From NCBI GenBank assembly GCA_041666185.1, contig JBAYHL010000004.1:105-64104 (forward strand): a stretch of 64,000 bases of DNA, written 5' to 3'. The notes under the pieces were generated by a model. The model searched no databases. It was not told the origin of the DNA and saw only the letters and a list, made by a program, of their open reading frames with translations. Every line of letters begins with the position of its first letter. Positions within the stretch are counted from its first letter, which is position 1. The DNA comes from Patescibacteria group bacterium (GTDB lineage Bacteria > Patescibacteriota > UBA1384 > UBA12157 > JAENIV01). The translations under genes and the position numbers were made by a program. Below, in pieces: positions 11,622 through 53,027 of the stretch.

Positions 11622-11743
11622 AGTGCTGGCGTCGATCTACTTTCCCGGGACCTTGCGGTCCGAGTATCATCGACGCTATGGTGCTTAACTTCTCTGTTCG
11701 GAATGGAAAGAGGTGTACCCACCACGCTAAAACACCAGCACTT
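11622..11743 (-). rRNA. rrf: 5S ribosomal RNA
   Basis: The reverse complement reads AGUGCUGGUG...CCGAACAGAGAAGUUAAGC...CGCCAGCACU, with helix I ends pairing and the conserved CCGAAC...GAAGUUAAGC loop. Confidence 0.85.
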
Positions 11744-11865
11744 AAATTGCGAAGGATTATATTAACTTACAACTTACAATCACCAACTACAACAAGTTGT
11801 AGATTGTTTGTTGTGAATTATTAGTTATTTTTCATCAGTACCTTAGTAGTTGTTTCGTCAAAAAA

Positions 11866-14780
<2,915 letters not shown>

Positions 14781-14893
14781 CAACTACCAAGGCACTGATG
14801 ATTCTGTTGTTAAAGTAGCCAGATTACTGGATAATCGGATGAATAGAGCAATCTCTAATCCTCTGATTATCTAACAACCTTTATTTATGATGT

Positions 14894-14918
14894 TAAAAAA
14901 ACCGCCTTGACGGCGGAC
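14894..14918 (-). terminator. Rho-independent terminator downstream of the pilin-LTD gene
   Basis: The minus strand reads CCGCCGUCAAGGCGG followed by UUUUUUU. Confidence 0.6.
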
Positions 14919-15052
14919 AAAACACAAAGTTAGCTTAAAAAAGCTTACGTTGTTAGCCGCGCGCCCCCTCTCCTAGATTGTCTTTTCCATACATCAGTTT
15001 TAACTCCTTTTTGATTTTAACAAGACCTTTGATTATTGTCAATAGTTTTCTA

Positions 15053-16213
15053 TTAAAAAGAACCTGGATTTGGACTTGCGTCATCGACAAAGCCACTGGT
15101 TGCACTAGTTCTAGCCAATGAATGGCCTTCAGCAACATCGGCTAAATGAGGAAGGGGTGTTGCAGTTGTTCCCCAGCTTAATTGATCAACTACCTGATCA
15201 TATGGATTCTTCAATTCAAGAGAGTCGCCATTGTTGTTTAAAAAAAAAGCGCTTGCTACGAAAATTTTTGCGTCAGGATATCCTGGCCATTTAGCAATAA
15301 ACCCCACTCCTGTAGTAGGTATTATCATAGCGAACTCATGAGACCCAATAGTAGTTGTGCGACCAGCAGCTTTTTCGAGTCCGGCTATATTGCCTACAGA
15401 TCCATAGAGGGAAGAAATTTTCCATCCATCCATATCAACAGATCCAGACGTTGGGTTGTAAAGTTCAATCCATTCAAAACTTTGTTCCATACCATCATTC
15501 CCCCCTGGTCCATAACTTCCTGACGGACCTTTGTCTGGGGCAACATCGTAATAAACCTCAGAAATTATCACATTCCCACCATTACTAATTGCTGGGGGAG
15601 GAGGATCTGACGGCTTCCATGTAGAGGCATCTAAACTATAAACTTCATACATTTTTGACGAAACACCAGTAGACGGCATTACTCCGCCATCATTAATCAT
15701 TAGTTCGTTTCCTTCTTCCAACCGTGCCATCAATTTGTAACCTGAACCATTAGAACCGTAATAATAGGCATAGGTTTCTGTTGTGCCCGCTTCATCACTA
15801 TAAGCTTTACCTTGAAGAGGATCTTGTGGTAAAGGTGATAAATAAACTTTTAAAATATTATGAAGCGAATTAGCGTTGTCAGTAAACCAAGAACGCACAG
15901 TCGCTGACGAATCACAACTTGCCTCGCATGTATTACTACTTAAAACCCAACTTGAACCAGTGCTTGGATAAGTACCTTTTTCATTTTTATATGTCTCTAG
16001 CGCTCCACGAATTGCATCCAAATTAGTAACTCTTTTACTGTCACGACTTTTTCTTCTGGCAGGAGCAAGACTAGTAATTACAAGACCAGCAACAACCACA
16101 ACAATCATTACCACTACTAAGAGTTCTATTAAGGTAAACCCCGACACCAATCGATGATTGGTTGTGGGGGTAAAACTACGTTTTTTTTGCTTAAGATATT
16201 TTTCTTGTCGCAT
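15053..16213 (-). CDS. Type IV pilin / pseudopilin with a C-terminal lamin-tail domain (LTD)
   Basis: Class III (prepilin) signal: basic leader then G|FTLIELLVVV. The C-terminus has LTD motifs VIISEVYYD, EWIELYNPT..VDMDGWKI and NNGDSLELKNPYDQVVDQLSWG. Confidence 0.85.
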   Translation of the reverse strand: MRQEKYLKQKKRSFTPTTNHRLVSGFTLIELLVVVMIVVVVAGLVITSLAPARRKSRDSKRVTNLDAIRGALETYKNEKGTYPSTGSSWVLSSNTCEASCDSSATVRSWFTDNANSLHNILKVYLSPLPQDPLQGKAYSDEAGTTETYAYYYGSNGSGYKLMARLEEGNELMINDGGVMPSTGVSSKMYEVYSLDASTWKPSDPPPPAISNGGNVIISEVYYDVAPDKGPSGSYGPGGNDGMEQSFEWIELYNPTSGSVDMDGWKISSLYGSVGNIAGLEKAAGRTTTIGSHEFAMIIPTTGVGFIAKWPGYPDAKIFVASAFFLNNNGDSLELKNPYDQVVDQLSWGTTATPLPHLADVAEGHSLARTSATSGFVDDASPNPGSF

Positions 16214-16327
16214 TTTTCCCCATTTATATTTATATCTTAAACTTTTTATTTTTTTTAATCAATAAAAAAATGGAGAAAAATTACTTTTAGCAAAAATTTC
16301 TCCATTTTTTCTCTGTTACTTAACAGA

Positions 16328-17020
16328 CTATTTTAATTCTTTACGAATTTTTTCCAAAATGTCTTGGGCCACGTCTTTACCGCCCAAACCAAAAGCAAGT
16401 CCACCAGCAATTGCCAAGAAAGCTACCAAACCAATAAACATGGTTCTAATAAGCGCTTCGGCAATACCTAGTTGGACCAAAACAGCCAAGAATGTGAAAA
16501 CAATAATTGCATAACGGACAATTGCTGCAATTGCGTCTGACATGGCAAAATCAGCTGCCGCCATGGCACCTTTAATCACATTTGACAAGAAATGAGCTAA
16601 AACTAACCCAATAAGCAAAATGGCACCAGCAGCAACAGCTGTTGGGACATAAGCAAGAATCTTGTCTAAGAATAATGCGACATCAGGCAATTTTAAGGTA
16701 TTAGCAGCCGCAATAAAGACAACTAGATAAATTATCCATTTAGCTACTGACGACAATAAAGCTGTTGTGTCTTTATCAATATTGCCTTTTTTCAAAACAT
16801 CTTCGACTTTAGCTTTTTCAAACAAGGTTTGTAAACCAATAATTCGAAAAAGTCGGTCGATAACAATCGCAACAATTATACCAATAAGCCAACCAATAAC
16901 TAAAATGATAATTGCGCCAATAAGATTAGGCAAGAAATTTACAAAACGATCCCAAATTGCTGTCCAACTGTCGGTTACCGCAGTTGTCCAATCTTGTAAA
17001 ACCATTTTTTCCTCTTTCAA
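16328..17020 (-). CDS. Polytopic membrane protein with MscS-associated 'TM-helix' type repeats (function unknown)
   Basis: 230 aa with repeated hydrophobic segments and short K/E-rich termini. Family assignment is weak. Confidence 0.5.
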   Translation of the reverse strand: MKEEKMVLQDWTTAVTDSWTAIWDRFVNFLPNLIGAIIILVIGWLIGIIVAIVIDRLFRIIGLQTLFEKAKVEDVLKKGNIDKDTTALLSSVAKWIIYLVVFIAAANTLKLPDVALFLDKILAYVPTAVAAGAILLIGLVLAHFLSNVIKGAMAAADFAMSDAIAAIVRYAIIVFTFLAVLVQLGIAEALIRTMFIGLVAFLAIAGGLAFGLGGKDVAQDILEKIRKELK

Positions 17021-17216
17021 AAATTAGAACTAAACTCTCGGATAGCTCGACCTCACTTTCTACCTTAATTAGATATTAAATTAAGGTAGCTCTATCCACA
17101 CTCAAGATATTTCAGATTTGAATATAATTCAAGAAGTTTGTCAAGAGCAAGGAGTATTTTAAAAGGGATGTATTAATACATCCCTTGTTTGTTTGTATAC
17201 CTTATGTTGTAGCAAT

Positions 17217-17795
17217 TTACTTGACAAAAACCCTATTCACCGCATCCCATATTCGGACAATACCAGGATGAGCCTGGACACCTAGTAACTTTTGTCTGTT
17301 AAACAATACTATTCCTTTTTCCGGATAATATTCGCTCGCTCGCAAATGATTTTGAGCGAAAGCCAATTCTTGCGGCGTCATTTCGAAAGCAAAAGTGTCT
17401 GCGAAAACATGCATTGAATATCCACCGACACCATCGGACCAAAGATATTGCTGAATATCACTAGAAGCGAAAAGTCTTCTTAGCCTTTCGACACCAATCA
17501 AAAGGCCCGTGTCATCTTCAAAGTGACGACGAGCGGTTTCCAGCAAAGACTCTCCAGGATTCATACTGCCACCATAAACCCACCATTCATTTTTAGCGGG
17601 CTTTATGCATCTTTTGGCTAAGCAGAGATTGATCTGACGCGTTGGCCGATCATACATCCAAGGCACAACATCACAGCAATGGTAAACAAGTCTCGATACT
17701 GCTCGAGGATATTCTTCGTCAGTTAGTCTAACTTTTGACGGTTGATAACCGTTTTCTACAAAAACACTGCCACCAATAGCTCTGTATTTTTCCAC
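17217..17795 (-). CDS. NUDIX-family hydrolase
   Basis: It has a Nudix-box-like GGSMNPGESLLETARRHFEDDTGL. GC is visibly higher (~45%) than the flanking DNA. Confidence 0.7.
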   Translation of the reverse strand: MEKYRAIGGSVFVENGYQPSKVRLTDEEYPRAVSRLVYHCCDVVPWMYDRPTRQINLCLAKRCIKPAKNEWWVYGGSMNPGESLLETARRHFEDDTGLLIGVERLRRLFASSDIQQYLWSDGVGGYSMHVFADTFAFEMTPQELAFAQNHLRASEYYPEKGIVLFNRQKLLGVQAHPGIVRIWDAVNRVFVK

Positions 17796-17884
17796 AACAA
17801 GGTAACCTCCTCTTTTAACTATTAGAACATGTTACTATACCATAAAAACCCCTTTTCGTCAAGGATTTTAGAGAAGTTGCAACC

Positions 17885-17912
17885 TTGACATTTTGGCAAT
17901 AACAAGTATATT
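17885..17912 (+). promoter_or_regulatory. Sigma70-like promoter for the C-type lectin gene
   Basis: TTGACA (17885-17890), a 16-nt spacer, then TATATT (17907-17912). An AGGAG RBS lies 8 nt before the ATG at 17945. Confidence 0.45.
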
Positions 17913-17944
17913 AGAATAAGTTCTTTAACAGATAGGAGACGAAC

Positions 17945-18694
17945 ATGAAAAAAGTTTTGTTTACCGCTCTTGCTTGCACAGTGTTTTCTCTGCCAAGCAA
18001 TATTTATGCTAGTAGTCATTCTTGGGTATTGTGCCCTCTTAATGGTCACTACTATTCCAAAACAGTTTCACCAGTAATGACATGGAATGAAGCAGAAACT
18101 GAAGCAATAAGTGTTGGTGGTCATTTAGCTACTATTCGCAATACAGCAGAAGAAGAATGGATACTCAAAACTTTTCCGCCAGAAAGACTCTGGATAGGGT
18201 TGACAGATTCAGTCTCGGAAGGTAATTGGTTATGGACTAGTGGTGAACCGGTTACTTACACCAATTGGTCAGCTGGCCATCCTAATAATTCTTCCGAAAA
18301 CCAAGATTTTGCTACAATTTGGGGATCACCACCAACATATCCCGCATACTGGGAATCGCGTTCTGGATACGAAAGAACATCTGGAATAATAGAGATAACA
18401 TCTCTACCGCTGCAAATTGTAAATCTTTTTGGTACAATTTATCAAAAAGATTTACAAGAGCAAGTCATTACAGCACCAGATGTCTTTATAGACATCCTGG
18501 ATGTGAATAGAGAACATTTTGTAGTGTCTGGCAAAACTGATGGTAACGGCAAATTCACTATTCTTGCTGATAACTGGCAAGATAGTACATATATCATTCG
18601 GATAAGAAAAACTGGTTACAAAACAAAAGAAGTAGGGGCTACTCTAAAGAATAGTTCCTCAACACCCTTTTCGACAACATTGGAAACAGAATAA
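17945..18694 (+). CDS. Secreted C-type lectin domain (CTLD) protein with a C-terminal carboxypeptidase-regulatory-like beta-sandwich
   Basis: Signal peptide. CTLD hallmarks are WNEAE..A...GGHLATI, WIGLTD, EGNWLWTSGEPVTYTNW, GHPNN and QDFATI. One of very few plus-strand genes here, and GC is slightly elevated. Confidence 0.85.
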   Translation: MKKVLFTALACTVFSLPSNIYASSHSWVLCPLNGHYYSKTVSPVMTWNEAETEAISVGGHLATIRNTAEEEWILKTFPPERLWIGLTDSVSEGNWLWTSGEPVTYTNWSAGHPNNSSENQDFATIWGSPPTYPAYWESRSGYERTSGIIEITSLPLQIVNLFGTIYQKDLQEQVITAPDVFIDILDVNREHFVVSGKTDGNGKFTILADNWQDSTYIIRIRKTGYKTKEVGATLKNSSSTPFSTTLETE

Positions 18695-18713
18695 ATAGAC
18701 AGATCCTTACTTT

Positions 18714-18751
18714 GGTCAATCAGAGATAACTTCAAGATTGACCTTTTTTAT
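18714..18751 (+). terminator. Bidirectional rho-independent terminator between the lectin gene (+) and the receiver gene (-)
   Basis: GGTCAATC...GATTGACC hairpin followed by TTTTTTA. Confidence 0.6.
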
Positions 18752-18766
18752 TCTTAAAATATTTTT

Positions 18767-19186
18767 TTACTCTAAATACTGTCTAATTTTGTCTACCACT
18801 TGATTTGGCGTAAGATTTGCTTTCACTAAATAGTCGTCGGCACCAAGTTTTCTTGCCATATTAATATCTGTAGCATCACCAAGATTAGAAAAAACGATAA
18901 CTGGTTTTTTGGAAGCTGGCCATCCAGAAGAACGAAGCTGTTTTAAAACATCAAGGCCATTAATTTTCGGAAGTATCAGATCAAGTAAAATCAGATCGTA
19001 ATCAATGGATCCTAATTTTTGAATTGCCTCCAAACCATCGAAAGCACTATCCATTTCAAAACCTTCCATAGCTAGCTTGTCCTGATAGGCTCTGACTAAC
19101 ATTCTATCATCTTCGATGAAAATAATTTTTTTTCTTGTTTGCTGAAATTGACCAGACTGATCTCCATTGTTTTGATTGTTTGTCAT
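18767..19186 (-). CDS. Stand-alone response-regulator receiver (CheY-like) protein
   Basis: 139 aa with the acidic pocket DD and phospho-acceptor D (LILLDLILP), T/S (VIVFSN) and K (LVK) signatures, and no output domain. Confidence 0.9.
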   Translation of the reverse strand: MTNNQNNGDQSGQFQQTRKKIIFIEDDRMLVRAYQDKLAMEGFEMDSAFDGLEAIQKLGSIDYDLILLDLILPKINGLDVLKQLRSSGWPASKKPVIVFSNLGDATDINMARKLGADDYLVKANLTPNQVVDKIRQYLE

Positions 19187-19206
19187 ATTCCCTCCATTTT
19201 TATTTT

Positions 19207-22200
19207 TTACATATCTTTTTCTTTATTAATTTTTAAAATTGGCAATGAAAAGTAAAATGTACTACCTTTACCAAGCTCTGCCTCGACCCAAATTTTACCT
19301 CCACAACCTTCTATAATTTTTCGAGCAATATATAAACCCAAACCAAGTCCCGTTCCTTTACCAAGAGGTATTTTCTTACCATCACTAACCTGGGCATATT
19401 TTTGGAATAGTTCTTTTTGTCGATCTTTAGCTATTCCTATACCCGTGTCCTTTATTGCCACAATAACTGAGTTCTCTTTAGCTAAAACTTCTAAGCTAAT
19501 TGAACCTTTGTCAGTATATTTAATAGCATTATCAAGTAAATTAACAATGGCCTCAGGAATTTTTTCACAATCTGCCATAACTTTAGGTATTTTTGTTGGT
19601 ATTTTATAATTAAATTTTAAACCTTTTTTTTCTATCAATGGTTTTGTTTGCTTAACTATATAACCTAAGATTGGCACTAAATCAATCAATTTAGGAACAA
19701 TAGTAATTTTCCCTTTTTCTATTCGAGACATAGTTAGAAAATCATTAATTATGTTTATTAAATTCGTATTGGCCCTACTAACATCTTCTAAAGGCACTTT
19801 TAACTTAGGAGGAATTTCACCATAGTCACCATCTAGTATCATTTCTGTATTGGCTCTTATAACAGACACGGGAGTTCGTAAATCGTGGGTTGCCATATTT
19901 AAAAAGTCATCTTTAGCCTGTTCCATTCTATTTCGCTCAGTAACGTCACGAAAGCTACCCAGAAGATACATTTTTCTATTAACAATCAACCGCGATATAT
20001 TTATATCAGCATAAAAAATACTACCGTCTTTTCTTAACACCGGAAGGTTTGAAACAAGTTTAAGTTTTCCTTTTACCTGTTCTCTAAATATTTTTTTAAC
20101 AAATGGTGCATCTTTTTTAGGATGAATATCGTCAACCCCTAAATCCAACAATTCTTTTTTTGTATATCTTAGCATATTACATATTGCTGTATTACACGTA
20201 CTAAATTTACTAGTTTCCGGATCAGCAACTAGTAAACCATCTTTAGAATCTTCAAATATAGTTTCGAATTTTATTTCTGATTCTTTTAATTTTTGTTCAA
20301 TTTTTCCATGTTCAACACGAACACGTTGTGAGGTAACACCAAAAGCAAGATCGTCCACTAATTCCTTCAATAGCTTAATTTCATCCAGAGCAAATGTATT
20401 TGATTTAATCGAATAAATACCAATTACACCAAATACTTTATCATCGCCAACAAGTGGTAAAGCAATAATTGACTTATAACCTCGTTTTAAAGCATCTTCC
20501 TTCCATGGGGACATAGTTGGATCTGTAGCAATATCGTGTACAATACTAGGATTGCCTGTACGAATAGCTATCCCTCCTGGCCCGCGACCACGCTCAGTAT
20601 CTGCCCATGTTAACTTGGCTTTTTTAATGTAGCCTGATTCGAGTCCAGCATGAGCTATAGGAAGTATGGTTTTTGCTTCATCATGTTTGACATAACCAAC
20701 CCACGCTAAGCGGTAACCACCAGTTTCAACAATAATACGACACGCCTCACTCAATAAGTCTATTTCGTCTGTAACATGAATTAGCATCTGATTAATTTCA
20801 CCCACCATCCGTAACGCACGGTTTAGTTTTATAAGGTTTACTTCCGCAAGTTTGGCCTCAGTAATATCCCAAGTAAGATCAGCGAAAAAGGAGACTAATT
20901 TAACATCCTGCTCGTCATAATTGCTCGATTTATTTCCAACACCTAGCACAGCCATAATTTTATCACCACGGATCACTGGTACTACTAATTCGCGAACTAC
21001 TTTTGCATGACCTTTTGGCATACCTTTTTTATTCAAAAGAGACTCATAATCATTGTGAATAACCGGCTTGCGCTGATAAACACAATCTACCCAAACACCA
21101 GCTTTTTCTATTGCATAATGTGATCCTTTGCCTTCAGCTTTGCAAAATTCTTTTTTTGTTCTAGTTGACCAATTTTGCAATGTTAGCGTTTTTTGATCGG
21201 AATTTACAAAATGGAAAAAACCAATAAGACTACCTGTGAGTTTTTCTATTTCGTTTAGTGCCTCTTCCAACAGCTCATCCATAGAGTGACTATTGGCAAA
21301 CACTAAAAGACGGGCACGAGCTTTAAGAATATTTTCTGTCTGTTTGCGCTCGGTAATATCTCTAATAATCGCCATGATCGCCGGTTTATCTTTATAAATA
21401 ATCCTGGAAGAATTCACTTCAACCGGTAGCTTATTTCCAGTTTTTGATAAAATTTCTATTTCATATCTATTTGGCGCGTCTTGACCCTTTAATCTTTTTT
21501 CGTACCTTTCCGCGACAATTTTTTTATACTCGGGAGACAAAAAATCTAGAAATGATTTTCCAATACTTTCCTCTTTTGTAAAACCTGTCATTTGGCAAAT
21601 TACTGAGTTTACGTACTCAAGCACACCTGCACCCTGTATAACTAAAATGCCATCGTTTCCTTTTTCTACCAAAGTTGAGTATTTTAGTTCGGAAGCTTTT
21701 AACTCCTCTTCTGTCTGTTTGCGCTTGGTAATATCACGAATATTGCATTGAATTATTAATTCCCCATCTGTCCTATAAGCATTGGCAATAAATTCAACTT
21801 CAATTTTTTTTCCATTTTTAGTTTCTAATAGTAAATTATTGAAATGAACATGTTTTTTGGCTTGCAAGGCAAGAAAATGCTTTTTCGACATAATAATGTC
21901 TTTAAAAACACCAATTTCCCAAAGATGTTTTTTTTGAAAATCAGCTTTAGAGTAGTTAAGTAAATTAATTAAAAACGGATTAACGTCTTTAATTATTCCT
22001 GTCTTAAAATCGACCAAAAGTATACCGTCTTGAGCCGTTTCAAATAACCGACGATAACGCAACTCTGATGTTTCTAGCTTGTCTTGTTCCTTTTTTTTGC
22101 GGTAAGTAATATCTTCAATAGCTAAAAGTATTATTTTCGGCTTTTTTGGCGGTCGAGGTATGCGTCGAGCATTCAATAACATCGCTTTTGGCCCAATGGT

Positions 22201-22542
22201 CTCAAAATTATGATCGACTTCGAAACTGTCAAAGAAATTATTTTTAGGAAGAATATCTTCCAACAATTTTTTTAATTTGGGAATATTCCATTGACCATTG
22301 CCTAAATCGTAAATAAACTGATTCGTGGTTTCCTTAGGGTTAACTTTAAAAGTCTGATAGAAGGCTTTATTAGCTAAGATTACTTTTAAATCAGTATCCA
22401 GTACCACCAAAGGTTCTCGTATCGTTGTAATAATTTCTTCAGCATACTCACGAGCTTCCTTTTCCTCTTTAAACAGTTCGGCAAAACGACGTTTTTCCAA
22501 AAAAACGTCGTTTAATTTTTCATTTAACTTCTTTTTGGACAC
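19207..22542 (-). CDS. Multi-domain PAS/GAF sensor histidine kinase (1111 aa)
   Basis: Several PAS (e.g. ...RDITERK...) and GAF modules. HisKA H-box is ATHDLRTPVSVI. HATPase G-boxes are DTGIGI and GTGLGLGLYIARKIIEGCGGKIWV. Confidence 0.9.
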   Translation of the reverse strand: MSKKKLNEKLNDVFLEKRRFAELFKEEKEAREYAEEIITTIREPLVVLDTDLKVILANKAFYQTFKVNPKETTNQFIYDLGNGQWNIPKLKKLLEDILPKNNFFDSFEVDHNFETIGPKAMLLNARRIPRPPKKPKIILLAIEDITYRKKKEQDKLETSELRYRRLFETAQDGILLVDFKTGIIKDVNPFLINLLNYSKADFQKKHLWEIGVFKDIIMSKKHFLALQAKKHVHFNNLLLETKNGKKIEVEFIANAYRTDGELIIQCNIRDITKRKQTEEELKASELKYSTLVEKGNDGILVIQGAGVLEYVNSVICQMTGFTKEESIGKSFLDFLSPEYKKIVAERYEKRLKGQDAPNRYEIEILSKTGNKLPVEVNSSRIIYKDKPAIMAIIRDITERKQTENILKARARLLVFANSHSMDELLEEALNEIEKLTGSLIGFFHFVNSDQKTLTLQNWSTRTKKEFCKAEGKGSHYAIEKAGVWVDCVYQRKPVIHNDYESLLNKKGMPKGHAKVVRELVVPVIRGDKIMAVLGVGNKSSNYDEQDVKLVSFFADLTWDITEAKLAEVNLIKLNRALRMVGEINQMLIHVTDEIDLLSEACRIIVETGGYRLAWVGYVKHDEAKTILPIAHAGLESGYIKKAKLTWADTERGRGPGGIAIRTGNPSIVHDIATDPTMSPWKEDALKRGYKSIIALPLVGDDKVFGVIGIYSIKSNTFALDEIKLLKELVDDLAFGVTSQRVRVEHGKIEQKLKESEIKFETIFEDSKDGLLVADPETSKFSTCNTAICNMLRYTKKELLDLGVDDIHPKKDAPFVKKIFREQVKGKLKLVSNLPVLRKDGSIFYADINISRLIVNRKMYLLGSFRDVTERNRMEQAKDDFLNMATHDLRTPVSVIRANTEMILDGDYGEIPPKLKVPLEDVSRANTNLINIINDFLTMSRIEKGKITIVPKLIDLVPILGYIVKQTKPLIEKKGLKFNYKIPTKIPKVMADCEKIPEAIVNLLDNAIKYTDKGSISLEVLAKENSVIVAIKDTGIGIAKDRQKELFQKYAQVSDGKKIPLGKGTGLGLGLYIARKIIEGCGGKIWVEAELGKGSTFYFSLPILKINKEKDM

Positions 22543-22639
22543 ATTACCCCCTCACCTATTTTATTAATTTTTAGTTATATTAGCTTAAAAAACTAATGCT
22601 TGTTTGTTTTTGTTTTTTACAAATTACATTTTTATTATA

Positions 22640-22667
22640 TCAAAAAAACTACAATTGTTGTAGTTTC
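22640..22667 (-). terminator. Rho-independent terminator between the tRNA-Ala islet and the sensor-kinase gene
   Basis: A perfect 9-bp stem, aaactacaa / ttgtagttt, followed on the minus strand by UUUUUUU. Confidence 0.5.
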
Positions 22668-22687
22668 AAATACATTATGGTGGACCT

Positions 22688-22700
22688 GAGGCTAAAAACT
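22688..22700 (-). repeat. 13-bp direct repeat of the tRNA-Ala 3' end (partner at 23361-23373)
   Basis: tggtggacctgag is identical at both sites. The flanks are partly similar (ttggaacccc versus ttgaacctcc). Confidence 0.7.
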
Positions 22701-22886
22701 TGGAACCCCTTCTTCGAGTATATATTCGAATGGTATCCAATACTAAAAGAAATATACGAACCTTAATAAGTTTCCACTAATCAACTCCAAAGAATTAGTA
22801 TCAAAAAAACTGTCACAACACTAGGAAGTGACAGTCAATAGAGATATATCGAATCTCCACCGGTTAAAAGCACTCGATGCTTGAAG

Positions 22887-23213
22887 TTATTGCAACAGCC
22901 CTTCTTTGAGAGTCGTCTCCACAACAACTCTATCAGCCATTGTCTTGACGGGCTGTCGATCTGTGCCCACTTGCCAGTTTAGATGCATTCCTCCCTCTGT
23001 CGCCTGAGTGACAAAACCATCTCCATTGGGGTGAACAACGACATCATTATGCCCCTTCTTCTTGAAAGTTATTCTCAATTTTTGATTCCTATGAAACTGG
23101 TGACATAGACTCAACACTAGATCCTGAGCGGCATGTAACCCTTGGACCTTCGATACCCTTAGCACAAACTTCATTAGCGTCTCACCTCCCTTATCCTGCA
23201 CATTATATAACAA
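22887..23213 (-). CDS. Hypothetical protein (108 aa) inside the tRNA-Ala-associated GC-rich islet
   Basis: Open frame with ~48-50% GC against ~35% background and no recognisable family. The start may be the internal MKFVLRV. Confidence 0.4.
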   Translation of the reverse strand: MLYNVQDKGGETLMKFVLRVSKVQGLHAAQDLVLSLCHQFHRNQKLRITFKKKGHNDVVVHPNGDGFVTQATEGGMHLNWQVGTDRQPVKTMADRVVVETTLKEGLLQ

Positions 23214-23360
23214 AACACTGATATTGTCAATATTTTAGCGCCTAGATTTAACCAGAGTGAATATAAACTAAATTAAGGATATGCAAACATGATCGACATA
23301 AAGGGTTCCAGCTCCTCTCAAGTATATACAAAAAAAGCAGGACTAAACCTGTTAATTTCG

Positions 23361-23435
23361 TGGTGGACCTGAGAGGATTTGAACCTCCGACCTTCTCCTT
23401 GCAAAGGAGTTGCTCTACCACTGAGCTACAGGCCC
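23361..23435 (-). tRNA. tRNA-Ala (anticodon UGC)
   Basis: The reverse complement is GGGCCUGUAGCUCAGUGGUAGAGC...CUCC-UUUGCAA-GGAG...GGUUCAAAUCC...CAGGUCCACCA. It has the G3:U70 identity pair and an encoded CCA. Confidence 0.9.
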
Positions 23436-23469
23436 ATGATGATAAGTTTTAAGAAAAGAAATACAAGTT

Positions 23470-23727
23470 TTACCAAGCAGCTGATGTTAAATAGACCAAA
23501 CTTCCAACTATCAGCAATATGGCTATCAACTTCCAAGCTGTATAAGTACCCCCCATTCCTAAATGTCTTTCTGCCCAATCCATTTTGCCAACTATTCTTA
23601 CAACTCGATCAGTATACTTCAAAATAAGAATCGCTACTGCCGTACATGCCAAAAAAATTAAAATTTTAATAAATACCATACGCTTACTCCTATAACTATT
23701 ATTTGGGTAATTGCCCCCAAAAACCAC
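23470..23727 (-). CDS. Small hypothetical membrane protein (2 TM)
   Basis: 85-aa ORF with two hydrophobic helices. Its 5' end overlaps the upstream ORF, so the true start may be the internal MVFIKIL. Confidence 0.4.
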   Translation of the reverse strand: MVFGGNYPNNSYRSKRMVFIKILIFLACTAVAILILKYTDRVVRIVGKMDWAERHLGMGGTYTAWKLIAILLIVGSLVYLTSAAW

Positions 23728-24128
23728 TTTTCTTTCGGTAGATCAAAATGAAATTTTTTATGAATCGAATGGATTTGTTTAAGCAGCGGTAACTGTCGTA
23801 AAGATCTAAATGGGTTATTGTCTATAATATCAACGGCAATTCCACCCATTCCACCAGCGATAATAACATCGAAATTTGATTTATGTTGAAACAAAATAAT
23901 AATTATTGCCCAAATTATTATAAATTCTGAAAGAGCGTAAATGTATATCCAAGTTGGCCAAGGTTTATTTTCATCTCTTTCTGGGTTAAAAAATGTACCC
24001 GGATCAACGTGAGGAACTGCATCTAAAATAAAGTGCAGAAAAAAGCCAACTAAAAATGCTAACAGCCAGTTATCAGTTACAGCTGCGGCTACCGCCGATC
24101 CTGCTAATAGGTGAGGTGTAATAATCAT
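23658..24128 (-). CDS. Membrane-bound metal-dependent-hydrolase-like protein (YdjM/DUF457-like)
   Basis: 156 aa, mostly TM helices, with H..LD..PH and HxxH-type motifs. Lies between tRNA-Ile and tRNA-Ala. Confidence 0.5.
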   Translation of the reverse strand: MIITPHLLAGSAVAAAVTDNWLLAFLVGFFLHFILDAVPHVDPGTFFNPERDENKPWPTWIYIYALSEFIIIWAIIIILFQHKSNFDVIIAGGMGGIAVDIIDNNPFRSLRQLPLLKQIHSIHKKFHFDLPKEKWFLGAITQIIVIGVSVWYLLKF

Positions 24129-24154
24129 AACTTAATCATCTAACCTTGATAACT

Positions 24155-24234
24155 TGGTGGGCGCACCTGGACTCGAACCAGGGACCTCGTCATTATCAGT
24201 GACGCGCTCTAACCAGCTGAGCTATGCGCCCACC
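24155..24234 (-). tRNA. tRNA-Ile (anticodon GAU)
   Basis: The reverse complement is GGUGGGCGCAUAGCUCAGCUGGUUAGAGCGCGUCA-CUGAUAA-UGACG...GGUUCGAGUCC...GCGCCCACCA. Confidence 0.9.
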
Positions 24235-24349
24235 AAATTATCAAGCAATGCCACGCTCCTTACTGAGCTAATCGTCCGCTAAACCAATAAAAGTTTTACC
24301 TTCCTTTTACTTTCTAATTTTATACCAATCTGTTAATTTTTTCAAGAAG

Positions 24350-24982
24350 CTAAGGTAATAATTGAAATGATTTGCTAAGCTCACTTAATAAATCGTTTTT
24401 ACTACTATCTTGATAGTTGGTGCCAAATTCAAAAATATAATTATCTTCAGAAACCGCGTAAGCATAATTATAATTTTCCGGATTAATATTTTGAACTGTA
24501 TAACCTTTTTGACCTGCCATCTCAATTTCTGAACCTAACTTAAAACCATTTGAAGAATTATAACTTTTATTAATCCATTCTAACAAAGTTAATTGTTTTT
24601 TTGGTTCGTAGATTTTAAGGTAAATATTTTTCTTTAAATTAGAGACATCTGTTTTATCTGCTTGACTCGCATCTTGGGCACTGCTCGAATTATTAAAACC
24701 CACTTGAAAAATTAATTCTTTATTAGACGAACCAGCACCGCTCTTTTGCTCTTGCCAAGTTGAAGGGTACTTAAAAGAAAAGCCATAAATTTCATTAGTA
24801 TAAGTTTTATAATTTACTTCTTGCGATTTAGTCACAACAGGTGTTATTGATACAGATGCCGACTTAACTGATTTATTAGTTTTTAAATACTTTGCTAATA
24901 AAAAACTTGAAACTGCTGAAATAATTAAAACTAAAAAGAAAATAAAAACCCAAAATATTTTTTTAGACGCCTGGGATCTCAT
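24350..24982 (-). CDS. Hypothetical membrane-anchored/secreted protein (210 aa) in the 16S to tRNA-Ile spacer
   Basis: N-terminal TM or signal segment, Ser/Asn-rich, no family match. Confidence 0.5.
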   Translation of the reverse strand: MRSQASKKIFWVFIFFLVLIISAVSSFLLAKYLKTNKSVKSASVSITPVVTKSQEVNYKTYTNEIYGFSFKYPSTWQEQKSGAGSSNKELIFQVGFNNSSSAQDASQADKTDVSNLKKNIYLKIYEPKKQLTLLEWINKSYNSSNGFKLGSEIEMAGQKGYTVQNINPENYNYAYAVSEDNYIFEFGTNYQDSSKNDLLSELSKSFQLLP

Positions 24983-25159
24983 TATCCCTACCTTTTACTA
25001 AATTATTTTTTACTATTTTAAGGATATCAAAAATTAGACCAATTAAAAAGAGGCATTCAGATCTTTTACGGCTGCAAGAAAGACGTCTCCATTACAAAAT
25101 CATAATGCACGACGATCGACACTGCTATCCTCACAAAAAGTGAGGCTAGGTGTTTACTC

Positions 25160-26622
<1,463 letters not shown>

Positions 26623-26959
26623 AGATATTCAAGCTAGATTACTCTAGATGAACATCTGGGTAAATTTTTATTTAAAGTCTTCTAAAATTTTTTAAAAAGA
26701 AGTTTTCTTGCAACCGTAAAAACCCTGAAATGCCTCCAAAATTCTTACGATCTAGTTGTTAAAGTTCTTTCTCACTTCAATCTGAATGAAGGACAAACAA
26801 AAAAGCTCCGAGACAGTCGGAACCTTTTTGACTATCCTCGATTTAATAAAGCACGATTAATTTTTTAATTTAAGGCAATATAAAATATCATCTCCTTAAA
26901 CTTAACAGACTAAGCCCATTATAACTTGAGTCAAAAACTATGTCAACCCCCACAAGTCC

Positions 26960-52922: not shown

Positions 52923-53027
52923 TATACCCCACCCTTAACTTAAATTTCAAAAAATTAATATCGACATATTAATTATAAGTTGCTCGTAGATATTGTCAAA
53001 CTATTAATCTTGTGCTAAGATAGACTT

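What the first reader, a model, noticed from the sequence alone, without database searches (positions are those of the whole stretch)
22688..23373. tRNA-Ala 3' end duplicated 13 bp, 660 bp away, bounding a GC-rich islet with a single 108-aa ORF
tggtggacctgag, the 3' terminal 13 nt of tRNA-Ala including CCA, recurs identically at 22688-22700. It has the same orientation and lies downstream of the tRNA. The adjoining bases are partly similar to the tRNA T-arm. This is the classic scar of site-specific integration into a tRNA 3' end (attL/attR). The bounded segment is small, and its lone ORF (22887-23213) is ~48-50% GC against ~35% background. No integrase is present, so it looks like a decayed remnant or a minimal cargo left after excision and re-integration. 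A terminator (22640-22667) sits just outside the repeat.
Basis: seen in the sequence. Interest (0 to 1): 0.6.

Follow-up and report, generated by a model that had tools for sequence, protein, structure and literature searches.

The report
Integrase-less insert at tRNA-Ala end
A 670-base piece of foreign-looking DNA carrying one small, apparently strongly expressed gene of unknown function sits behind a tRNA-Ala gene in a Patescibacteria genome, bracketed by an exact 13-base copy of the tRNA's end; this is an ordinary kind of scar left by an integrating mobile element that has lost its integrase.

Summary
The core observation is real. The last 13 nt of tRNA-Ala(UGC), including CCA, recur exactly once, in the same orientation, 683 bp downstream. 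The distal copy is at 22678-22690, not 22688-22700. Chance expectation is about 2e-6.

- The claimed T-arm similarity beside the distal copy is not above chance (P=0.49).
- ORF GC is 45%, not 48-50%, against a background of 36±4%.

The 670-bp insert holds one self-contained cassette: a perfect TTGACA-17-TATAAT promoter, a strong ribosome-binding site, a 95-aa orphan ORF with foreign-like GC3, and its own terminator. A second terminator lies just beyond the distal repeat. No integrase is encoded anywhere in the 64 kb.

Relatives from this Patescibacteria clade (neighbouring protein 52-81% identical) keep the flanking genes. They lack the insert, the ORF and the repeat, and carry unrelated cargo in the same slot.

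Best reading (about 0.6): an att-flanked, integrase-less remnant of an integrative element (CIME-like) retaining a moron-like gene.

Not shown: an isogenic empty site, an attP, or a cognate integrase. This is a new member of a known kind, of modest interest.

The parts
23361..23435 (-). tRNA-Ala(UGC) gene with encoded CCA and the G3:U70 pair. It is the proximal boundary of the insert.
   Evidence: ARAGORN; Rfam RF00005, 72 bits; identical tRNA in relatives L003-L006
23361..23373 (-). Proximal 13-bp direct repeat (attL-like core). It comprises 2 nt of the T-stem, the 7-nt acceptor 3' strand, the discriminator A and CCA.
   Evidence: family D5
23330..23358 (-). Weak hairpin (CAGG/CCTG) followed by T7, directly after the tRNA and inside the insert. 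It may be an element-supplied terminator for the tRNA.
   Evidence: sequence; fold -9 kcal/mol, z -1.3, not significant on its own
23202..23230 (-). Perfect sigma-70 consensus promoter TTGACA-17 nt-TATAAT in front of the ORF.
   Evidence: 12/12 match; only 3 such sites in the 64 kb against 0.07 expected, one of the others lying upstream of the 16S gene
23182..23190 (-). Shine-Dalgarno sequence GGGAGGTGA, 7 nt before the ATG.
   Evidence: read from sequence
22887..23174 (-). Orphan 95-aa ORF (108 aa if started at TTG 23213). GC 45.5%; GC1/2/3 = 58/31/47%.
   Evidence: only a self-match among 5.8 billion proteins; weak similarity to a single beta-propeller blade only; no Pfam, PHROG, NCBIfam or PADLOC match
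22802..22836 (-). Intrinsic terminator of the ORF: stem ACUGUCAC/GUGACAGU followed by U7.
   Evidence: fold -14.5 kcal/mol, z -3.1
22691..22801 (-). AT-rich non-coding arm between the ORF terminator and the distal repeat. It contains the near-palindrome TTCGAGTATATATTCGAA (22713-22730).
   Evidence: I6. Any role as a recombinase-binding arm is inference only.
22678..22690 (-). Distal 13-bp direct repeat (attR-like core; displaced tRNA 3' end).
22641..22666 (-). Hairpin (AAACUACAA/UUGUAGUUU) plus U7 terminator, 12 nt after the distal repeat. I infer it to be the terminator that followed the tRNA before the insertion.
   Evidence: 10-bp stem in the MFE and centroid structures

Best explanation
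A circular or excised DNA carrying a 13-bp (or longer) mimic of the tRNA-Ala(UGC) 3' end recombined site-specifically with the chromosomal tRNA-Ala gene.

The tRNA was regenerated from element sequence. This is the proximal repeat, which is followed by an element-borne hairpin and T-run. The displaced original 3' end, together with what I take to be its terminator, now lies 683 bp downstream as the distal repeat.

What remains today is an integrase-less, att-flanked remnant. It is CIME-like: both cores are intact and the recombination genes are absent. It is 670 bp long.

Its only content is a moron-like autonomous transcription unit: a consensus promoter, a strong ribosome-binding site, a 95-aa orphan ORF of foreign composition, and an intrinsic terminator.

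Shown: the exact oriented repeat, the cassette anatomy, the compositional anomaly, absence from relatives, and absence of an integrase in 64 kb.

Inferred: that a tyrosine-type integrase made the junctions, that internal deletion removed it, and that the ORF is expressed.
For: - The 13-mer occurs only twice in the window, against 0.01 expected. The per-site probability is 2.2e-9, or about 2e-6 within 1 kb downstream.
- The repeat ends exactly at the tRNA's CCA, and identity stops sharply on both sides.
- A hairpin plus T-run follows each repeat copy.
- The cassette has a 12/12 promoter, a Shine-Dalgarno sequence and ATG, and a terminator with z -3.1.
- ORF GC is 45.5% and GC3 is 47%, against GC3 of 21-35% in neighbouring genes. 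The GC1>GC3>GC2 pattern is typical of coding sequence.
- Relatives keep the flanking genes but lack the insert, the ORF and any tRNA-end repeat. They carry mutually unrelated cargo in the same slot.
- In a related population that is 99.6-99.9% identical, homology breaks exactly after the tRNA-Ala discriminator base.
- The same structure appears in another large assembly (ENA, MEGAHIT-style contig names). A short JGI contig also spans the tRNA and the first ~110 bp of the insert.
- No recombinase is encoded in the window.
- The principle that a regenerated tDNA and its displaced fragment mark island ends comes from PMC4383910. The CIME definition comes from PMC5704250 and PMC6323972. The moron definition comes from PMC3594210.
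Against: - Only one instance exists. No empty site, attP or circular junction was found, and no integrase was identified anywhere.
- The nearest relatives (81% identity of the neighbouring protein) differ in the whole 6.2 kb between tRNA-Ala and the mechanosensitive-channel gene. The state before insertion therefore cannot be reconstructed.
- The kinase next to the distal repeat has no ortholog.
- Thirteen bp is short for a T-stem-type identity block.
- No recognisable remnant of any mobile-element gene lies inside the insert.
- The ORF has no homologs, so even its reality as a gene rests on signals and composition.
Confidence: 0.6

Rival explanations
1. The 683-bp unit is not a dead remnant. 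It is a live, minimal, non-autonomous integrative cassette: two att cores plus short arms plus one gene. An integrase encoded elsewhere in the genome or on a helper element excises and re-integrates it in trans.
For: - Both cores are 13/13 identical, with no decay.
- The non-coding arms of 147 and 111 bp are about the size of attP arms.
- The cassette is fully self-contained.
- The tRNA-Ala 3' end is a polymorphic site in a related population.
Against: - There is no second copy in the window or in 219 fetched loci.
- The ORF has no homolog in 5.8 billion or 1.84 billion protein sets, in IMG/VR, or in phage or plasmid collections.
- No attP junction was found.
- No integrase is known for it.
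Confidence: 0.12
2. The 13-bp repeat is a target-site duplication made by a staggered-cut insertion. This would be a transposase- or casposase-like event that happened to hit, or targets, the tRNA 3' end. It is not an att core carried by the element.
For: - An exact short direct repeat flanks a discrete insert.
- From my own knowledge, not tested here: casposons make TSDs of about 14-15 bp and favour tRNA 3' ends.
Against: - The insert has no terminal inverted repeats.
- No transposase or Cas1 is present.
- It is single-copy.
- The repeat ends exactly at CCA, which is expected for a tRNA-restoring att site but coincidental for a TSD.
Confidence: 0.08
3. The distal 13-mer plus terminator is the last relic of a second, tandem tRNA-Ala gene. 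Its 5' 62 nt were replaced by unrelated DNA through illegitimate recombination.
For: - The distal copy is followed by a good terminator, like a real tRNA gene end.
- A marginal third tRNA-like stretch lies at 23123-23151 (score 13.5, p about 0.015).
Against: - None of the relatives has two tRNA-Ala genes here.
- Similarity stops abruptly at 13 nt with nothing above chance beyond it (P=0.49). That is not the pattern of gradual decay.
Confidence: 0.07
4. The repeat is a chance match in a fast-evolving intergenic slot, and the ORF is a spurious or de novo reading frame.
For: - Other 13-nt exact matches between this 851-bp stretch and the window do occur. They are AT-rich.
- The ORF is an orphan, and the AlphaFold model is poor (pLDDT 45).
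Against: - This specific G+C-rich 13-mer has an expectation of 3e-4 in the whole window on both strands.
- Its position, orientation and exact coincidence with the tRNA end are those predicted beforehand by the integration model.
- A perfect promoter, Shine-Dalgarno sequence, terminator and coding-type GC pattern argue that the gene is real.
Confidence: 0.05

Closest known systems
tDNA-integrated genomic islands / prophages (Islander signature: regenerated tRNA plus displaced 3' fragment)
   Same: A tRNA gene lies at one end and a correctly oriented exact copy of its 3' end lies at the other. The content is compositionally atypical and is absent from relatives (PMC4383910).
   Different: There is no integrase gene, which Islander requires. 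The size is 0.67 kb rather than kilobases to hundreds of kilobases. The identity block is only 13 nt.
CIMEs (cis-mobilizable elements) and other decayed ICE/IME/prophage remnants
   Same: It retains intact attL- and attR-like repeats and has lost the integration and transfer genes (definitions in PMC5704250 and PMC6323972).
   Different: No parent ICE, IME or prophage is known. There is no accretion partner and no evidence of mobilisation. The host is a Patescibacteria (CPR) bacterium rather than a Firmicute, and the element is much smaller than the CIMEs I know of.
Phage morons
   Same: It is a single gene with its own promoter and terminator and a GC content different from its surroundings (PMC3594210).
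   Different: It is not embedded in a recognisable prophage. No phage genes are nearby, and the ORF has no PHROG match.
Casposons / IS elements / MITEs (insertions flanked by target-site duplications)
   Same: A short exact direct repeat flanks a discrete insert at a tRNA 3' end.
   Different: There are no terminal inverted repeats, no transposase or Cas1, and only one copy.

Membership tests
tDNA-integrated genomic island (Islander criteria) | Intact tRNA/tmRNA gene at one boundary | tested here: met
   tRNA-Ala(UGC) at 23361-23435, 72 bits
tDNA-integrated genomic island (Islander criteria) | Displaced fragment of the same tDNA, correctly oriented, at the other boundary | tested here: met
   13/13 identical 3' fragment at 22678-22690 in the same orientation; probability about 2e-6
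tDNA-integrated genomic island (Islander criteria) | Tyrosine integrase gene inside the island | tested here: not met
   The only ORF has no family match. No recombinase is encoded anywhere in the 64 kb.
tDNA-integrated genomic island (Islander criteria) | Absent from related genomes / empty attB observable | tested here: inconclusive
   The insert is absent from all relatives recovered. None is isogenic, however. The exact attB junction was searched only in the GTDB species genomes, with no match, and the whole 6.2-kb slot differs.
CIME (cis-mobilizable element) | Retains attL and attR | tested here: met
   Two identical 13-bp cores
CIME (cis-mobilizable element) | Has lost integration and transfer genes | tested here: met
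   670 bp with a single orphan ORF
CIME (cis-mobilizable element) | Derived from an ICE/IME and mobilisable in cis after accretion with one | not testable with these tools
   No parent or partner element was found. Testing this needs experiments or population read data.
Phage moron | Own promoter and terminator; GC differing from neighbours | tested here: met
   12/12 promoter; terminator z -3.1; GC 45.5% against 36%
Phage moron | Located within a phage or prophage genome | tested here: not met
   No phage genes flank it; no match to phage DNA or viral contigs
IS / MITE / casposon | Terminal inverted repeats and (for autonomous forms) a transposase or Cas1; usually multicopy | tested here: not met
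   No TIRs at 22691.../...23360; single copy; no such genes
Integron gene cassette | attC recombination site and an integron integrase/attI platform | not tested
   No recombinase of any family was seen in the window. The cassette has its own promoter, unlike typical integron cassettes. No dedicated attC model was run.

The most novel reading that the evidence does not exclude
The 683-bp unit is a functional, minimal 'micro-island': two 13-bp att cores, short arms and one strongly expressed gene. An integrase specific for the tRNA-Ala 3' end shuttles it in trans among Patescibacteria. The slot behind tRNA-Ala, inside the split rRNA operon of this clade, would then be a dedicated landing pad for such single-gene cassettes, which would explain the unrelated cargo seen in each lineage.
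Probability: 0.1. Interest if true: 0.6.

Novelty: new member of a known kind. Interest (0 to 1): 0.3.

Why it matters
If the reading is right, this is a clean, very small example of how streamlined Patescibacteria (CPR) genomes gain lineage-specific genes. Site-specific insertion occurs behind a tRNA gene that itself sits inside a broken-up rRNA operon, and what is left is one foreign gene with its own strong expression signals. It adds a data point on mobile-element traffic in a phylum where such traffic is poorly documented. It also flags the tRNA-Ala 3' flank as a variable slot in this clade. It does not reveal a new mechanism.

Tried and rejected
- **Structured RNA instead of a gene.** No Rfam family matched at gathering or lenient thresholds. 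The fold z-score is -1.4. Rejected.
- **Function of the ORF.**
  - No match in Pfam, PHROGs, NCBIfam, PADLOC or PDB sequences.
  - An exhaustive phmmer search gave only weak hits of residues ~40-80 to individual blades of WD40 or FG-GAP repeat proteins. That is too weak to assign a function.
  - The AlphaFold single-sequence model has pLDDT 45, so no fold search was run.
- **Isogenic empty site.**
  - The neighbouring 156-aa protein gave relatives no closer than 81% identity, all with different cargo.
  - The GTDB scan found nothing.
  - The full kinase has no ortholog. The best partial hit, L226, is not next to a tRNA.
- **attP, attB and L017-type junction searches.** All returned 0 hits.
- **The tRNA-end 14-mer in IMG/VR.** L133 looked slightly extended but is not a tRNA or an att site that I could support.
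- **A third repeat at the far end of the 6.2-kb lineage-specific block.** None was found even with 3 mismatches allowed.
- **Sub-terminal repeats inside the insert** (D9, I13, I14). Their length and number are what chance gives.
- **Extended T-arm similarity.** Not above chance.

Full report
**Setting**

The window comes from a Patescibacteria (CPR) metagenome-assembled genome. The source database names the neighbouring protein 'MAG: hypothetical protein WCV58_02070 [Patescibacteria group bacterium]'.

The finding lies inside a broken-up rRNA operon on the minus strand. In order, the operon holds:
- 16S rRNA (25165-26619)
- a PsbP_2-like gene
- tRNA-Ile (24155-24231)
- two small membrane-protein genes
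- tRNA-Ala(UGC) (23361-23435)
- about 6.2 kb of lineage-specific DNA
- a gene with a mechanosensitive-channel N-terminal domain
- a gene with an LTD domain
- 23S rRNA (11863-14768)
- 5S rRNA

**Checking the observation**

TGGTGGACCTGAG occurs exactly twice in the 64 kb with up to one mismatch allowed, at 23361-23373 and 22678-22690. Dinucleotide shuffles expect 0.01 occurrences.
- The first copy is the last 13 nt of tRNA-Ala: two T-stem bases, the 7-nt acceptor 3' strand with U70 of the G3:U70 pair, discriminator A and CCA.
- The second copy has the same orientation and lies 683 bp downstream.

From the window's base composition, the chance of this 13-mer at a given site is 2.2e-9. That is about 2e-6 within 1 kb downstream, and 3e-4 anywhere in the window on either strand. 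Other AT-rich 13-mers do recur by chance in this stretch. This G+C-rich one, at the position and orientation the integration model predicts, does not.

- The bases next to the distal copy are not more similar to the tRNA T-arm than shuffled sequence (P=0.49). Identity stops sharply at 13 nt on both sides.
- ORF GC is 45.0-45.5%, not 48-50%. Background is 36.0 +/- 4.1%, and only 1.7% of background windows reach the ORF value.

**Anatomy of the insert, read in the direction of the tRNA**

Directly after CCA comes a weak CAGG/CCTG hairpin with a T7 run (23358 down to 23330). On its own it is not significant.

Next is a 12/12 sigma-70 consensus promoter, TTGACA-17-TATAAT, at 23230 down to 23202. 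Only three such sites exist in the window against 0.07 expected, and one of the other two lies upstream of the 16S gene.

Then follow:
- GGGAGGTGA, seven bases of spacer, and ATG at 23174
- a 95-codon ORF ending at 22887
- a strong intrinsic terminator at about 22836 down to 22802 (-14.5 kcal/mol, z -3.1)

The 108-aa TTG start at 23213 lies upstream of the promoter's -10 hexamer, so it is unlikely to be the real start.

A 111-bp AT-rich arm follows, then the distal 13-mer. Twelve bases further on there is a second clean terminator, AAACUACAA/UUGUAGUUU plus U7, at 22666 down to 22641. After that come the promoter region and gene of an 1111-aa PAS/GAF histidine kinase.

The arrangement fits the expected product of integration into a tRNA 3' end. 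The tRNA is regenerated with element sequence behind it. The displaced original end remains attached to a terminator, which I infer was the tRNA's own before the insertion.

**The ORF**

Its GC by codon position is 58/31/47%. Neighbouring genes have GC3 of 21-35%. The GC1>GC3>GC2 pattern is typical of coding sequence, and the GC3 value looks foreign. The non-coding parts of the insert are 33-35% GC, like the host's intergenic DNA.

The protein is an orphan.
- The only hit among 5.8 billion proteins is itself.
- It has no match in Pfam, PHROGs, NCBIfam, PADLOC or PDB sequences.
- No IMG/VR contig encodes it.
- There is no phage or plasmid DNA match beyond a 33-nt piece of the tRNA.

An exhaustive phmmer search gave only weak hits of residues ~40-80 to single blades of TIR-WD40 and FG-GAP repeat proteins. 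One blade cannot form a propeller, so this does not assign a function. The ORF could be a fragment of such a gene.

The AlphaFold single-sequence model is unreliable (pLDDT 45). There is no evidence for a structured RNA.

**Is an integrase present?**

No. Pfam annotations of the called genes, plus my own scans, cover essentially the whole window and show only housekeeping genes and the kinase block.

**Is the structure an assembly artefact?**

This is unlikely. An ENA contig of 50 kb is identical across the insert. A separate 1.5-kb JGI contig spans the tRNA and the first ~110 bp of the insert.

**Comparison with relatives**

The 156-aa protein between tRNA-Ile and tRNA-Ala has relatives at 52-81% identity. 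Their contigs keep the order tRNA-Ile / 156-aa and 69-aa genes / tRNA-Ala / ... / conserved promoter and leader / mechanosensitive-channel-domain gene. What lies between tRNA-Ala and that leader differs in every lineage:

| Locus | Content of the slot |
|---|---|
| L004-L006 | about 110 bp, no gene |
| L007 | a 92-aa gene and a 179-aa gene |
| L009-L016 | a 151-aa gene |
| L013 | a 261-aa gene |
| window | the insert, then kinase, response regulator, C-type lectin and NUDIX genes |

These cargo proteins are unrelated to one another. None of the relatives has the insert, the ORF or any repeat of its own tRNA end.

One related population adds independent support. L017 is 99.6-99.9% identical to L014, L015, L016 and L009 over up to 4.7 kb. 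Homology breaks exactly after the tRNA-Ala discriminator base. L017 continues with CCA plus novel sequence, while the others continue with AAAAAATAAATAATC. This is a strain-level polymorphism located precisely at the tRNA-Ala 3' end.

Together these results show that the tRNA-Ala 3' flank is a gene-gain hot spot in this clade.

**What could not be obtained**

I could not find an isogenic empty site.
- The closest relatives differ over the entire 6.2 kb.
- The kinase beside the distal repeat has no ortholog. The next best hit is at most 68% identical over 36% of its length, and that gene is not next to a tRNA.

Exact searches for the predicted attP junction, the predicted attB junction and the L017 junction found nothing. 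Hits to the tRNA-end 14-mer in IMG/VR are chance matches. No third repeat marks the far end of the 6.2-kb block.

**Interpretation**

The most economical explanation is site-specific integration into the tRNA-Ala 3' end, followed by loss of everything except both att cores, short arms and one moron-like gene cassette.

Three published definitions frame this reading.
- The regenerated tDNA plus displaced 3' fragment is the signature used to map islands (PMC4383910).
- A gene with its own promoter, its own terminator and deviant GC is the definition of a phage moron (PMC3594210).

The unit fails the integrase criterion for an autonomous island. It is not inside a prophage. So it works like these elements, but it can only be filed as an integrase-less remnant.

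Rivals kept open are:
- a still-mobile, trans-mobilised micro-element (no second copy and no attP found)
- a target-site duplication from a transposition-type event (no TIRs, single copy, and the repeat ends exactly at CCA)
- a relic of a second tRNA-Ala gene (no relative has two, and similarity stops abruptly rather than decaying)
- chance

**Verdict**

It is an ordinary kind of feature in an under-studied phylum: a new member of a known kind, of modest interest.

Noticed in passing
window 11624-26619 (minus strand); L003-L017: The rRNA operon of this Patescibacteria clade is interrupted by protein-coding genes in a conserved order: 16S / PsbP_2-like / tRNA-Ile / 156-aa and 69-aa membrane proteins / tRNA-Ala / variable slot / mechanosensitive-channel-domain gene / (LTD) / 23S / 5S. 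Several relatives also carry LAGLIDADG ORFs in their rRNA genes.
   Followed up: partly
L017 position 4799 versus L014 4375, L015 4894, L016 2326, L009 9035: Contigs that are 99.6-99.9% identical diverge exactly after the tRNA-Ala discriminator base. L017 continues with CCA+TTGTGAATTTTATAGC, the others with AAAAAATAAATAATC. The L017 contig ends 62 bp later, so the inserted or replaced DNA is unknown.
   Followed up: partly
window ~17040-17095 (minus strand); L004 2760-2800; L007 2254-2296; L009, L013, L014 equivalents: A conserved leader lies upstream of the mechanosensitive-channel-domain gene. It has a TTGACA promoter and then GTGGATAG-[variable hairpin]-GGTCGAGCTATCC. The inner hairpin differs between lineages (CCACC/GGTGG, CCGCC/GGCGG, and a longer AT-rich stem in the window), while the outer stem is invariant. 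No Rfam match was found. RNAalifold showed no covariation in the part that could be aligned.
   Followed up: partly
window 19207-22542 (minus strand): The 1111-aa PAS/GAF histidine kinase next to the distal repeat has no ortholog among 5.8 billion proteins. The best full-length-type hits are from Ignavibacteria-like MAGs at 33-42% identity. The kinase / response regulator / lectin / NUDIX block is lineage-specific and probably acquired horizontally.
   Followed up: partly
window 23202-23230, 26918-26946, 52972-52999 (all minus strand): Only three perfect TTGACA-N16-18-TATAAT promoters occur in the window, against 0.07 expected. One lies upstream of the 16S gene, one is in the insert, and one lies upstream of a 221-aa gene with no Pfam match.
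   Followed up: no
tRNA-Ala genes of L007, L009-L016 versus the window, L004, L013, L017: Whether CCA is genome-encoded in tRNA-Ala varies among close relatives of this clade.
   Followed up: no
window 13668-13905 (23S rRNA): All but one of the differences between the window and the otherwise identical ENA contig L001 cluster in a ~240-bp stretch of the 23S gene. This suggests strain mixing or a chimeric assembly there.
   Followed up: no
window 23123-23151 (inside the ORF): A 29-nt stretch resembles tRNA-Ala positions 41-68 (GAAGGTC...CTCAGG). The local alignment score is 13.5, with p about 0.015 against block shuffles. This is marginal and possibly chance.
   Followed up: yes
window 17945-18694 (+): A protein with a C-type lectin domain (Lectin_C, 1.8e-14) is encoded on the opposite strand within the lineage-specific block. 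This is an unusual domain for a CPR bacterium.
   Followed up: no
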